NCBI GenBank assembly: GCA_021199275.1 | Contig: JAJQIJ010000037.1 | Location: 14,154-78,153 of the forward strand | Origin: Clostridiales bacterium | Lineage (GTDB): Bacteria; Bacillota; Clostridia; Oscillospirales; Acutalibacteraceae | Direction of reading: 5' to 3' | DNA: 64,000 nt | Translations under genes and position numbers: made by a program | Notes under the pieces: model-generated | The model's database searches: none | Seen by the model: the letters and a program-made list of their open reading frames with translations, nothing else | What the model was told of the DNA's origin: nothing | Shown: one piece after another, positions 61,627-64,000 of the stretch | Layout: the number at the start of each line of letters is the position of its first letter | Numbering within the stretch: the stretch's first letter is position 1

Positions 61627-61764
61627 TTCAATAAAGCTTACCCGTTATTCAACGTGGGGGCGGCAGCCGCTGCCGCGCCCAGCGGGGAATTGTATGCACC
61701 GCTGATTAAAAATTGCACCCCGCCGCCTGTAGAGACGGCGGGCATTTCCCCCCCTAAGTTATAA
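61627..61764 (-). repeat. Full copy (D) of the ~138-bp palindromic repeat
   Basis: Plus strand TTCAATAAAGCTTACCCGTTATTCAACGTGGGGGCGGCAGCCGCTGCCGC...GCCGCCTGTAGAGACGGC...CCCCTAAGTTATAA. Confidence 0.92.
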
Positions 61765-61793
61765 TTGTAAACGATTATTAAAATTGTAACTGC

Positions 61794-63566
61794 TCATCTT
61801 ATCAAATCAATTATATTAAATTTTAAAAACTTATTCGTTGGGAAAAAAGTGACAATAAAGACATACAGAGATATAAGCAAGCCAACAACTACAATCCAAA
61901 CCGGATTGAAAAAGATGATAAAATTCCAGCCAATATTGATAACAACTGCAACTATAAAATAAAACAGCGCTGCGCAAAAATATGAAACAAATATTTGTAA
62001 TAATTTTTCTAAAAAAATTATTTTCATTATTTCGTTCTTTGATATTCCAAAAATTTGCAAATACCCAAATTCACGTTTTCTAAAAAACAAATCAAGTTTA
62101 ATTTCGTTAGTAACAAAAATCATAGACAGAATTATTATAACAAATATAGCTAACAATGAAATCGCAACTATTGAATTAATAATTGACTGTACATTTAACA
62201 TTGCCGAATCCCAAGGTGAAATTGAACCCCCAAAATATTCTCTTAATTCTTTATATGCCGATGTATTATAAAGGTTATCACATGCGACCATTAACATATC
62301 ACTTGATTCTATATTTCCAAATTCCTTTAGACTATCGTAAGGAACATATACTGATTCTGTGTTTTCAGATAAACGGTAATAATCAAAATAGTAAACAAGA
62401 TTATATAATTCAGAATCTGTCAAATCATTAAGAATCCCCGAAATTGTAAAATGATAATTATTAATTATAATTTCTTTTCCAACACAATCTTTATAATTTG
62501 AAACACTAAAATTGTTATTTATAAATTCTTGATTTACAATAACTTCATTTTGCTCTTTAGGAAATGTTCCGTAAGCTAACACCCCGGGACAACTAAAGCC
62601 GCTATATTTTGCATCAGTAAGAATATAACAAGTAAAATTATCTTGTTTAAATTGATAATTTTCAAATATTTTTAAGTCATATGTATCTTTATATTCTTCA
62701 TAACCATATTCACTGATTGTAAAAGTATTCATTGGATAATTTGCATATACTCTATCTATTAAAATGTTTTGAATATTTTGCTGCAATCCAATACAAAGTA
62801 AAATTAGAAATAGCATAAATGATAACAATATATTTCTGCTAAAATTTGAAAATTTATTTTTTCTTAATACATATTTAAAGAGTTTACGGCGCTGCTCATT
62901 TTCTTCATTATGGACTAAATGATTAATTGTTTTTTTACTGTTCTTAATTTCTATATTAGATATATTTCCATAATCCAAATGAATTATTACATTTGCAATG
63001 TTATCAAAGCAATCCTCATGAGTAGAAATAATAATTATATTGTTATTCGTTGATATCTTGGCAAATATTTTTGCAAGCTTTATGGAATTATCATTATCTA
63101 ATGAAGCAGAAGGTTCATCTGCTAATATCAACTGAGGATTTGAAAGCAAAGCCCTTACAATAGAAACTCTTGACCTTTCACCACCAGAAAGTTCATTCGG
63201 ATATTTTTTTAGTAAATTATCTATATCTAACTGCTGAGAATAATTATGTATAAGAGTAATATCATTTTTAATGAATAAAAGATTATCCATTACCGTCATA
63301 TTAGAAATAAGTAAGCTATTCTGAAAAATATAACCAATCTTATCTCTGACGACACTTTTATCTGTTATTTGTTGAACATTATCCCAAACATATTTACCCA
63401 AGTAATCACTATCTATCAAACCAAGAATATTCAGCAATGTAGTTTTGCCACAGCCGCTAACGCCCTTAATTAGATAGATTTTTCCATACTCAAAGTTAAA
63501 GTTTATATTATTAAGAATTGTGCGATCATATTCTTTTGTTATATTTTCTAATTTAATCATCATCAC
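61794..63566 (-). CDS. AT-rich ABC transporter ATPase-permease fusion (MacB/FtsX-like)
   Basis: GVSGCGKT, LSGGE, LADEPS, H-switch, then TM helix, soluble loop and FtsX-like C-terminal TMs with RKREFG. Confidence 0.9.
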   Translation of the reverse strand: MMMIKLENITKEYDRTILNNINFNFEYGKIYLIKGVSGCGKTTLLNILGLIDSDYLGKYVWDNVQQITDKSVVRDKIGYIFQNSLLISNMTVMDNLLFIKNDITLIHNYSQQLDIDNLLKKYPNELSGGERSRVSIVRALLSNPQLILADEPSASLDNDNSIKLAKIFAKISTNNNIIIISTHEDCFDNIANVIIHLDYGNISNIEIKNSKKTINHLVHNEENEQRRKLFKYVLRKNKFSNFSRNILLSFMLFLILLCIGLQQNIQNILIDRVYANYPMNTFTISEYGYEEYKDTYDLKIFENYQFKQDNFTCYILTDAKYSGFSCPGVLAYGTFPKEQNEVIVNQEFINNNFSVSNYKDCVGKEIIINNYHFTISGILNDLTDSELYNLVYYFDYYRLSENTESVYVPYDSLKEFGNIESSDMLMVACDNLYNTSAYKELREYFGGSISPWDSAMLNVQSIINSIVAISLLAIFVIIILSMIFVTNEIKLDLFFRKREFGYLQIFGISKNEIMKIIFLEKLLQIFVSYFCAALFYFIVAVVINIGWNFIIFFNPVWIVVVGLLISLYVFIVTFFPTNKFLKFNIIDLIR

Positions 63567-63574
63567 ACCTTCTT

Positions 63575-63713
63575 TTCAATAAGGGCTTGCCCGTTATTCA
63601 ACGTTGGGGCGACAGCCGCTGCCGCCCCCCTATTGGGAGATTGTACTCACCGCTCTTTCAAAATCGGAAAGAGCCGCCTGTAGAGGCGGGGACATTCCCC
63701 CCCTAAGTTATAA
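63575..63713 (-). repeat. Full copy (E) of the ~138-bp palindromic repeat
   Basis: Plus strand TTCAATAAGGGCTTGCCCGTTATTCAACG...GCCGCCTGTAGAGGCGG...CCCCTAAGTTATAA; direct repeat of D. Confidence 0.92.
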
Positions 63714-64000
63714 TAAATCTCTTTGTAATCCAAGTAAATTATACCAATTATTGTTAGTCACTTTCCTTATATTTGTTAAGGAATATATTGTGCTGAATAA
63801 TAAAAGTAATGTTAGATAAATTATAATTAAACTATAATTAAAAGTAAAAATCTGAAAATTTATTAGCTCAATTTTATCATTAATAAAATTTAGAATAATC
63901 ATTAATAAAAATGCAGGTATTGCGCTTATTAATATAATCTTGCTTATCTCTATTAAATTACCGAATAAGAAAGAATATACAATTTCTCTTTTCTTATATC
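63708..64000 (-). CDS. 3' end of an AT-rich FtsX-like ABC permease (runs off the window end)
   Basis: The frame of track ORF 63708-63902 stays open to 64000: ...YKKREIVYSFLFG...(TM)...(TM)...LQRDLL*; KKREI is typical of FtsX-type permeases. Confidence 0.75.
   Translation of the reverse strand, partial: YKKREIVYSFLFGNLIEISKIILISAIPAFLLMIILNFINDKIELINFQIFTFNYSLIIIYLTLLLLFSTIYSLTNIRKVTNNNWYNLLGLQRDLL

What the first reader, a model, noticed from the sequence alone, without database searches (positions are those of the whole stretch)
61627..64000. Foreign AT-rich genes punctuated by direct repeat copies, like gene cassettes
Reading along the minus strand: AT-rich permease gene, whose TAA stop is the TAA of the repeat's TTATAAC start; repeat E; RBS AAGAAGGTG within ~5 nt of the repeat end; AT-rich ABC gene; 30 nt; repeat D; then host-composition DNA. 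Copy D marks the compositional boundary (seen). A stop codon inside a terminal TAAC, a ~118-nt folded core and a closing GTTGAAT (fits GTTRRRY) resemble integron attC cassette organisation (established pattern), which is not a recognised feature of clostridial chromosomes. Against a true attC: the repeat continues ~24 nt past GTT, other copies flank core genes, and no integrase is in the window. D and E look no closer to each other than to B, so they are not a fresh duplication. Either the repeat mediates capture or shuffling of accessory genes by an undescribed route, or it inserts preferentially at AT-rich gene boundaries (inference).
Basis: partly seen in the sequence, partly recalled or inferred. 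Interest (0 to 1): 0.75.

Follow-up and report, generated by a model that had tools for sequence, protein, structure and literature searches.

The report
Small mobile repeats, not gene cassettes
The two repeats around the AT-rich ABC transporter gene are copies of a gene-less, hairpin-rich mobile element, about 132 nt long and present about 170 times in this genome, that inserts just after (T/A)ATAA (often a TAA stop codon); they are not integron-like cassette sites.

Summary
Repeats D (61627-61763) and E (63574-63712) lie in direct orientation around a 590-aa fused ABC-ATPase/FtsX gene with about 25% GC. The stop codon of the upstream gene sits in E's first bases, the ribosome-binding site abuts E's other end, and D sits at the GC boundary.

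The cassette reading does not hold. The repeat gives 167 hits (81 near full length) on most contigs of this 1.86-Mb Ruminococcus-type MAG, nearly all intergenic. The closest ABC operons elsewhere have the two ABC genes 14 nt apart with no repeat, so E is a later insertion. No integron integrase is present.

Three empty-site comparisons (ABC, argG, glnS) show the element starts exactly after a pre-existing ...ATAA stop. There is no target duplication and there are no inverted ends. The five-helix fold covaries across 12 species.

AT-rich islands carry more copies because they offer more TATAA sites. Occupancy per site is equal (0.086 vs 0.070).

The best mechanistic guess is IS200/IS605-like (PATE-type) single-strand transposition. 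However, no matching transposase was found, and orientation follows transcription rather than replication.

This scan had already noted a similar TATAA-targeting family in another genome. Interest is modest.

The parts
61627..61758 (-). Repeat D, element proper (CTTAGG...TTATTGAA on the minus strand). It lies in the 3' untranslated stretch of the ABC operon, between the ABC stop and the terminator.
   Evidence: nhmmer and covariance-model hits (127 bits); boundaries from the alignment of 46 copies
61759..61763 (-). TATAA flanking target of D
   Evidence: ATAA is invariant at the 5' edge of all copies; inferred to be target rather than element from the empty sites
63574..63707 (-). Repeat E, element proper, inserted between the two ABC-FtsX genes
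   Evidence: 129 bits; orthologous operons lack it
63708..63712 (-). TATAA target of E. Its TAA (63708-63710) is the stop codon of the upstream ABC-FtsX gene, at the same codon as in orthologues (...QRDLL*).
61794..63566 (-). 590-aa fused ABC ATPase + MacB/FtsX-type permease, about 25% GC
   Evidence: Pfam ABC_tran 2e-27, FtsX 1.4e-11; homologues at 64-78% identity
63708..64000 (-). Last 96 codons of a first fused ABC-FtsX gene (630-aa type). The rest lies on contig C17:3-1586.
   Evidence: tblastn with the L048 operon proteins
61575..61600 (.). Bidirectional terminator hairpin shared by the GH38 gene and the ABC operon
58372..61566 (+). Host-composition GH38 alpha-mannosidase gene, convergent with the island
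35908..36046 (-). Copy B of the same element family
   Evidence: 128 bits
38110..38246 (+). Copy C of the same family, in opposite orientation
   Evidence: 102 bits
1622..1746 (+). Degenerate copy
   Evidence: 49.7 bits

Best explanation
D and E are two ordinary members of a large family of gene-less mobile DNA elements. The elements are about 132 nt long with sharp ends and read CTTAGG...TTATTGAA on the strand that usually runs with the flanking genes.

Shown:
- Each copy sits immediately 3' of a pre-existing (T/A)ATAA, which stays in place.
- No target duplication is made and there are no inverted ends.
- TAA is the commonest stop codon here, so many copies start right behind a gene's stop. 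This produces the 'stop codon inside the repeat' look.
- E was inserted in this way into the 14-nt gap between two adjacent ABC-FtsX genes of a horizontally acquired AT-rich operon.
- D was inserted behind the last gene of that operon.
- AT-rich islands collect more copies because their intergenic DNA offers more TATAA sites.
- The element folds into a conserved structure: a long-range helix P1 closing hairpins P2-P4, plus a 3' hairpin P5.

Inferred:
- Movement is by a trans-acting enzyme working on single-stranded DNA, in the manner of IS200/IS605 'peel and paste'. TATAA would be the transposon-adjacent motif and TTGAA the transposon-end motif. I put this at about 0.4.
- The sense-strand bias is due mostly to selection after insertion.
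For: Dispersed family:
- 167 hits, 81 near full length, with sharp boundaries.
- Nearly all copies are intergenic.

Secondary insertion of E:
- Operons with ABC proteins 78%, 68% and 64% identical have both genes contiguous and no repeat at nhmmer E<=1.

Target:
- Three empty-site comparisons (ABC, argG, glnS) keep the same C-terminus and stop position. Congeners show an empty ...ATAA.
- Head-to-tail tandem copies lack TATAA between them.
- ATAA is invariant while the rest of the element is about 80% identical.

Fold:
- 30 of 44 pairs show changes on both sides, and 0 of 500 shuffles reach this, in two alignments.
- G-U pairs outnumber A-C by 141 to 68 on the sense strand.

AT-rich islands:
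- Odds ratio 4.5, but occupancy per TATAA site is equal, 0.086 vs 0.070.

Family spread:
- About 258 copies in a second Ruminococcus MAG.
- Diverged subfamilies in 11 of 144 congeners.

Known precedent:
- The TAM/TEM logic, gene-less PATE-like elements and mobilisation in trans are described for IS200/IS605 (PMC10055086).
Against: No mobilising enzyme was found.
- The 98.7%-complete assembly has no Y1 transposase, TnpB, IS91 Y2, IS110, RVT_1 or DDE_Tnp_1.
- Y1 transposases do not co-occur with the element in the genus: 4 of 11 element-positive genomes against 59 of 144 overall.
- Ends of resident IS200 copies are unlike the element.

Other points that do not fit a typical IS200/IS605 relative:
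- Orientation follows the flanking genes (55 vs 12), even for genes on the lagging strand (13 vs 3), rather than GC skew.
- The 5' and 3' hairpins are not alike.
- Only three empty sites were examined, all by between-species comparison.
- 6 of 13 edges of AT-rich islands have a copy within 40 nt. This is more than the per-gap rate predicts, though numbers are small.
Confidence: 0.85

Rival explanations
1. Integron-like cassette system. The repeats are attC-type folded recombination sites, and gene+repeat units are captured or shuffled by a site-specific recombinase.
For: - TAAC lies at one edge and GTTGAAT follows the closing helix.
- The folded core is about 118 nt.
- Two direct copies bracket one gene, and AAC can pair with GTT.
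Against: - No IntI.
- Copies are dispersed on most contigs in both orientations, mostly between core genes.
- The ABC operon is contiguous without repeats in relatives.
- A 22-24-nt hairpin lies beyond the GTT.
- Sister subfamilies have GTTGGTG or GTTGCAA, not GTTRRRY.
- Complete integrons were not found in any Firmicutes genome surveyed (PMC4889954).
Confidence: 0.02
2. The elements, or their TATAA flank, act as landing pads or recombination substrates through which AT-rich islands are acquired or lost. This would explain why copies sit at island edges.
For: - 4 of 7 AT-rich islands of 2 kb or more have a copy within 40 nt of an edge, and 2 have copies at both edges.
- The ABC island is bounded by D on one side and by degenerate copies at C17:3967-4218 on the other.
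Against: - Occupancy per TATAA site is the same inside and outside AT-rich DNA.
- Flanking copies are inverted at the C2 and C24 islands and truncated at inconsistent positions.
- D and E share at most 20 identical bases in a row, which is poor for homologous recombination.
- The donor-like operons carry no element.
Confidence: 0.07
3. The element's main significance is at the RNA level. It would be a transcribed, structured intercistronic or 3'-UTR module (for example a stabiliser or processing site) kept in the sense orientation by selection. Mobility only explains how it spread. This is not exclusive of the best explanation.
For: - Strong sense-strand bias relative to flanking genes, independent of replication strand, although TATAA sites are symmetric, 378 vs 385.
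- The bias is weaker in the genome with younger copies, 17 vs 7.
- G-U pairs exceed A-C on the sense strand.
- D lies upstream of the operon's terminator.
- Copies are depleted about twofold per site in divergent, promoter-containing gaps.
Against:
- No Rfam family matches.
- The bias could equally come from removal of harmful antisense insertions.
- The G-U excess is equally compatible with folding as single-stranded DNA.
Confidence: 0.25
4. The element is moved by something other than an IS200/IS605-type Y1 enzyme, for example an undescribed nuclease or recombinase that recognises the four-helix fold, possibly acting on the non-template strand of transcribed DNA.
For: - No Y1 gene in the host and no co-occurrence across the genus.
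- The ends are unlike resident IS200.
- Orientation is tied to transcription.
- The fold is more elaborate than the two similar hairpins of known PATEs.
Against: - MAGs often lose IS copies on assembly.
- All sequence-level hallmarks fit the HUH single-strand model: retained 5' flanking motif, a similar motif at the 3' end, no duplication, no inverted ends, tandem re-insertion.
- No alternative enzyme candidate was found.
Confidence: 0.3

Closest known systems
PATEs, the gene-less derivatives of IS200/IS605 insertion sequences (e.g. PATE-like ISGst elements; IS608, ISDra2 as models)
   Same: - About 100-150 nt, with no gene, no inverted ends and no target duplication.
- Inserted 3' of a fixed 4-5-nt motif that stays at the left flank (TAM), with a related motif at the right end (TEM).
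- Hairpins near both ends.
- Many copies that must be moved in trans (PMC10055086).
   Different: - Its ends match no tnpA-bearing element found here.
- The two end hairpins differ from each other.
- A long-range helix and two extra hairpins are conserved.
- Orientation follows transcription, not the replication fork.
- No Y1 gene is present in the host assembly.
Integron attC sites (e.g. Vibrio cholerae repeats)
   Same: - Folded site of similar size behind a gene's stop codon.
- AAC...GTT pairing at the base of the fold.
- Many similar copies in one genome.
   Different: - Not in one co-oriented array.
- No IntI.
- The element extends about 24 nt past the GTT.
- The consensus is not kept in subfamilies.
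- The gene between copies is not a mobile unit, because the operon is contiguous elsewhere.
REP/BIME elements with RAYT transposases
   Same: High-copy intergenic palindromic repeats, thought to be spread by a Y1 HUH enzyme, with possible effects on mRNA stability (PMC2817692, PMC3733652).
   Different: - REPs are 20-40 nt single palindromes tagged by GTAG or CGTC, and come with a RAYT gene.
- This element is about 132 nt with five helices, has a TATAA flank and has no RAYT.
Classical bacterial MITEs (Correia, RUP, ERIC, bcr1)
   Same: Size, copy number, intergenic location and co-transcription with neighbouring genes (own knowledge).
   Different: Those have terminal inverted repeats and target duplications (for example TA) made by DDE transposases. 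Neither is present here.

Membership tests
Integron (attC cassette array) | IntI-type tyrosine recombinase in the genome or next to the array | tested here: not met
   TIGR02249 best hit 39 bits against a cut-off of 265; only generic tyrosine recombinases
Integron (attC cassette array) | attC sites clustered in one co-oriented array, one per cassette | tested here: not met
   167 hits spread over most contigs on both strands, mostly between core genes
Integron (attC cassette array) | R'' RYYYAAC and R' GTTRRRY at the two ends of the site | tested here: not met
   TTATAAC does not fit RYYYAAC. GTTGAAT fits only in this subfamily; others have GTTGGTG or GTTGCAA. A 22-24-nt hairpin follows the GTT.
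Integron (attC cassette array) | gene + site behaves as a unit (cassette) | tested here: not met
   Orthologous ABC operons have the two genes 14 nt apart with no site
IS200/IS605-derived PATE | no terminal inverted repeats and no target-site duplication | tested here: met
   Flank logos of 62-77 copies here and 40 in a second genome
IS200/IS605-derived PATE | insertion 3' of a fixed short motif that is retained at the left flank | tested here: met
   Three empty-site comparisons; tandems without TATAA between copies
IS200/IS605-derived PATE | similar subterminal hairpins at both ends, bound by TnpA | tested here: inconclusive
   Hairpin P2 lies 16 nt from the 5' end and P5 at the 3' end. Both are conserved but unlike each other.
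IS200/IS605-derived PATE | ends shared with a tnpA-bearing element | tested here: not met
   No Y1 gene in the host. IS200 copies of the genus and family give no nhmmer hit at E<=10, and their ends differ. No long element lies between paired ends.
IS200/IS605-derived PATE | active strand on the lagging-strand template | tested here: not met
   Orientation follows the flanking genes in 13 of 16 lagging-strand gene pairs; only 64% agreement with GC skew
DDE-type MITE | terminal inverted repeats and target duplication | tested here: not met
Any Rfam RNA family | score at or above the gathering threshold | tested here: not met
   None at gathering. The best E-value hit is 0.11, well below threshold.

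The most novel reading that the evidence does not exclude
The family is moved by an enzyme or route not yet described. Its substrate would be a conserved fold of a long-range helix enclosing three hairpins, plus a 3' hairpin. It would insert behind (T/A)ATAA on the non-template strand of transcribed DNA. That would explain the missing Y1, DDE, IS110 and IS91 transposases and reverse transcriptase, the transcription-linked orientation, and the roughly 60% occupancy of TATAA stop codons.
Probability: 0.12. Interest if true: 0.7.

Novelty: new member of a known kind. Interest (0 to 1): 0.3.

Why it matters
- It removes a tempting false lead, an integron-like system in a clostridial chromosome.
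- It shows how a target-specific mobile element that lands behind TAA stop codons can mimic cassette organisation.
- The family itself makes up 1-2% of two small Ruminococcus genomes and breaks their assemblies.
- It has a well-supported fold and a precisely defined insertion site but no known mobilising enzyme. That makes it a usable test case for trans-mobilised single-strand transposition in gut and rumen Firmicutes, and for the effect of such elements on operon transcripts.

Tried and rejected
- Rfam at gathering and at E<=10 found no family.
- RNAalifold on a plain MAFFT alignment gave a poor structure because of indels in G/C runs. It was replaced by a hand-drawn structure and a covariance model.
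- Pairing solo 5' and 3' ends up to 8 kb apart, in this genome and in 386 kb of the second genome, found no autonomous copy. Only housekeeping genes or short forms lay between them.
- An apparent resemblance between the 3' hairpin and an IS200 right-end segment (GGGCTTTGCCCG...) was dropped. The IS200 end extends a further hairpin beyond it, and no profile similarity exists.
- Y1 co-occurrence across the genus showed no association.
- Plasmid, phage and viral-contig collections gave no match.
- Synteny downstream of GH38 in congeners is not conserved, so the island's own empty site could not be defined.
- The exact GH38 protein in another assembly comes from the same strain, and that contig breaks inside D.
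- The literature search found no description of this family.

Full report
**Observation**

- On the minus strand, an AT-rich ORF ends with a TAA at 63708-63710.
- Repeat E follows, down to 63574.
- Then come AAGAAGGTG and the start of a 590-aa ORF (63566-61794), then about 30 nt, then repeat D (61763-61627).
- Next is a bidirectional terminator (61575-61600), and then the convergent GH38 gene of host composition.
- GC falls from about 0.47 to about 0.25 at D.
- D and E are 80% identical with a longest exact run of 20 nt. E is just as close to copy B at 35908-36046.

Two corrections are needed.
- The ORF between D and E is a single fused ABC ATPase plus FtsX/MacB-type permease.
- The upstream ORF is the C-terminus of a second fused ABC-FtsX protein.

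**What the repeat is**

It is a genome-wide family.
- A profile built from 46 copies gives 167 hits in the 1.86-Mb assembly, 81 of them near full length. Five lie in the window.
- Many contigs end inside a copy.
- Boundaries are sharp. On the strand I call sense, the conserved block begins (T/A)ATAAC-TTAGG and ends ...TTATTGAA.
- Copies are nearly all intergenic.
- No Rfam family matches.
- A pattern scan of about 185,000 species genomes found the conserved 3' end in only two other MAGs, both labelled Ruminococcus.
- One of these (G041) holds about 258 copies of the 3' end in 1.7 Mb. It has two size classes, about 140 nt and about 105 nt; the shorter lacks hairpin P3.
- A covariance model finds diverged subfamilies in 11 of 144 congeners.
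- There is nothing in the plasmid, phage or viral collections.

**Is E part of a cassette?**

No.
- The closest relatives of the 590-aa protein (78%, 68% and 64% identical) lie in operons of the same order: two small genes, a 630-aa ABC-FtsX gene, then a 588-aa ABC-FtsX gene. The two ABC genes are 14 nt apart and no repeat is present at nhmmer E<=1.
- The upstream protein ends ...QRDLL* at the same codon in all four operons.
- In the relatives the stop is followed at once by the ribosome-binding site. In the window, the element sits between the TTATAA and the AAGAAGG.

In addition:
- The genome has no integron integrase.
- Sister subfamilies do not keep GTTRRRY.
- A 22-24-nt hairpin lies beyond the GTT.
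- Complete integrons were not found in any Firmicutes genome in the IntegronFinder survey (PMC4889954).

**Insertion site**

Three independent comparisons give the same picture. A pre-existing ...ATAA stop stays at the same codon, and the element begins with C right after it.
- ABC junction.
- argG: the closest congener has the stop at the same codon, and another congener has an empty ...GAATAA.
- glnS: four congeners have an empty ...AAATAA at the same codon.

Further support:
- Head-to-tail tandem copies join ...TTGAA directly to CTTAGG... with no TATAA between them. TATAA is therefore flank, not element.
- A site that already holds a copy can be hit again.
- There is no target duplication and there are no inverted ends.
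- ATAA is invariant, while the body of the copies is only about 80% identical.
- Thirty-two copies start within a few bases of an upstream stop codon. Twenty of the 33 genes that end in TATAA carry a copy right behind them.

**Fold**

- Single copies fold at -50 to -68 kcal/mol.
- The common architecture is a long-range helix P1 closing three hairpins (P2, P3, P4), followed by a 3' hairpin P5.
- Within this genome, pairing is mostly conserved sequence.
- Across species it covaries. In an alignment with the second MAG, 30 of 44 pairs change on both sides, 88% of cells pair, and 0 of 500 shuffles reach any measure.
- The same holds for 13 copies from 11 other species. There P1 changes from GGCAAG/CTTGCC to CATTTG/CAAATG and other pairs.
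- These alignments were fitted to the model, and the lineages are few, so the numbers overstate independence.
- G-U pairs outnumber A-C by 141 to 68 on the sense strand. This points to folding of that strand, either as RNA or as single-stranded DNA.

**The island**

- The window ends 14 nt before the contig end. The operon continues on contig C17 with the rest of the 630-aa gene, two small genes and a sigma-70-like gene.
- The AT-rich stretch ends at C17 at about position 4000, next to degenerate copies at C17:3967-4218.
- Genome-wide, copies are 4.5 times more likely than other intergenic gaps to have an AT-rich flank. Four of seven AT-rich islands have a copy within 40 nt of an edge.
- Occupancy per TATAA site is the same in AT-rich and ordinary gaps, 0.086 vs 0.070.
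- Flanking copies at other islands are inverted and truncated at inconsistent points.
- I therefore read the association as target availability. The edge excess (6 of 13 edges) rests on small numbers and is not fully explained.

**Orientation**

- Between co-directional genes, 55 copies run with the genes and 12 against. The same holds for gene pairs on the lagging strand (13 vs 3). Agreement with GC skew is only 64%, below the 71% shown by genes themselves.
- TATAA sites are symmetric, 378 vs 385, so target supply does not explain the bias.
- Copies are about half as frequent per site in divergent gaps.
- In the second MAG, whose copies are more uniform, the bias is weaker at 17 vs 7.
- This fits selection after insertion, but coupling to transcription cannot be excluded.

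**Mechanism**

- The sequence-level hallmarks are those of IS200/IS605 single-strand transposition and its gene-less PATE derivatives, which are moved in trans (PMC10055086). These hallmarks are a retained flanking motif, a related motif at the other end, no duplication, no inverted ends, hairpins and re-insertion at the same site.
- The enzyme is missing. The host has no Y1, TnpB, IS91, IS110, RVT_1 or DDE_Tnp_1 hit.
- Y1 genes do not co-occur with the element in the genus.
- Resident IS200 ends are unrelated to the element.
- I put the IS200/IS605-like route at about 0.4 and an unknown route at about 0.3.
- A MAG can easily lack its IS copies.

**Verdict**

- The object is a new family of a known kind: a target-specific, non-autonomous hairpin element.
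- An earlier follow-up in this scan reached the same reading, a TATAA-targeting element of about 140 nt, on another genome. I reached the target independently here from three empty sites.

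Noticed in passing
window 54364-54601 (-): T-box leader, 130.5 bits, full length.
   Followed up: no
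window 18635-18707 (+): tRNA gene, 71.6 bits.
   Followed up: no
G000 contig C17:1-4000 joined to window 61764-64000: An AT-rich operon of about 6.2 kb (sigma-70-like gene, two small genes, two fused ABC-FtsX genes) split over two contigs. One relative of this operon (L052) lies next to TraG/T4SS-type conjugation genes, which suggests carriage on a conjugative element.
   Followed up: partly
L038-L047 and G041:C1, C4, C6, C8 (second Ruminococcus MAG): The same family occurs there at about one copy per 6 kb. It includes a short form of about 105 nt that lacks hairpin P3. A few copies are followed by an extra copy of the last 22 nt, a unit bounded by TTGAA on both sides.
   Followed up: partly
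L054:1429-1746 (-) and L053:30-452 (+): IS200-type tnpA genes in the two other element-bearing MAGs, one truncated next to a tRNA gene and one intact. Their ends are unrelated to the element.
   Followed up: yes
congeners G263, G003, G259, G340 and others: A second class of Y1-domain proteins of 240-296 aa, up to 7 copies per genome and possibly RAYT-like. They were not seen in the element-bearing genomes.
   Followed up: no
G000 C6:45363-46917 (L120): argG and argH are each followed by a short degenerate copy of the element, directly behind their stop codons.
   Followed up: partly
G000 C35:2941-3696: A 403-aa tyrosine recombinase next to an AT-rich island (C35:750-2750) that has no element copy nearby.
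   Followed up: no
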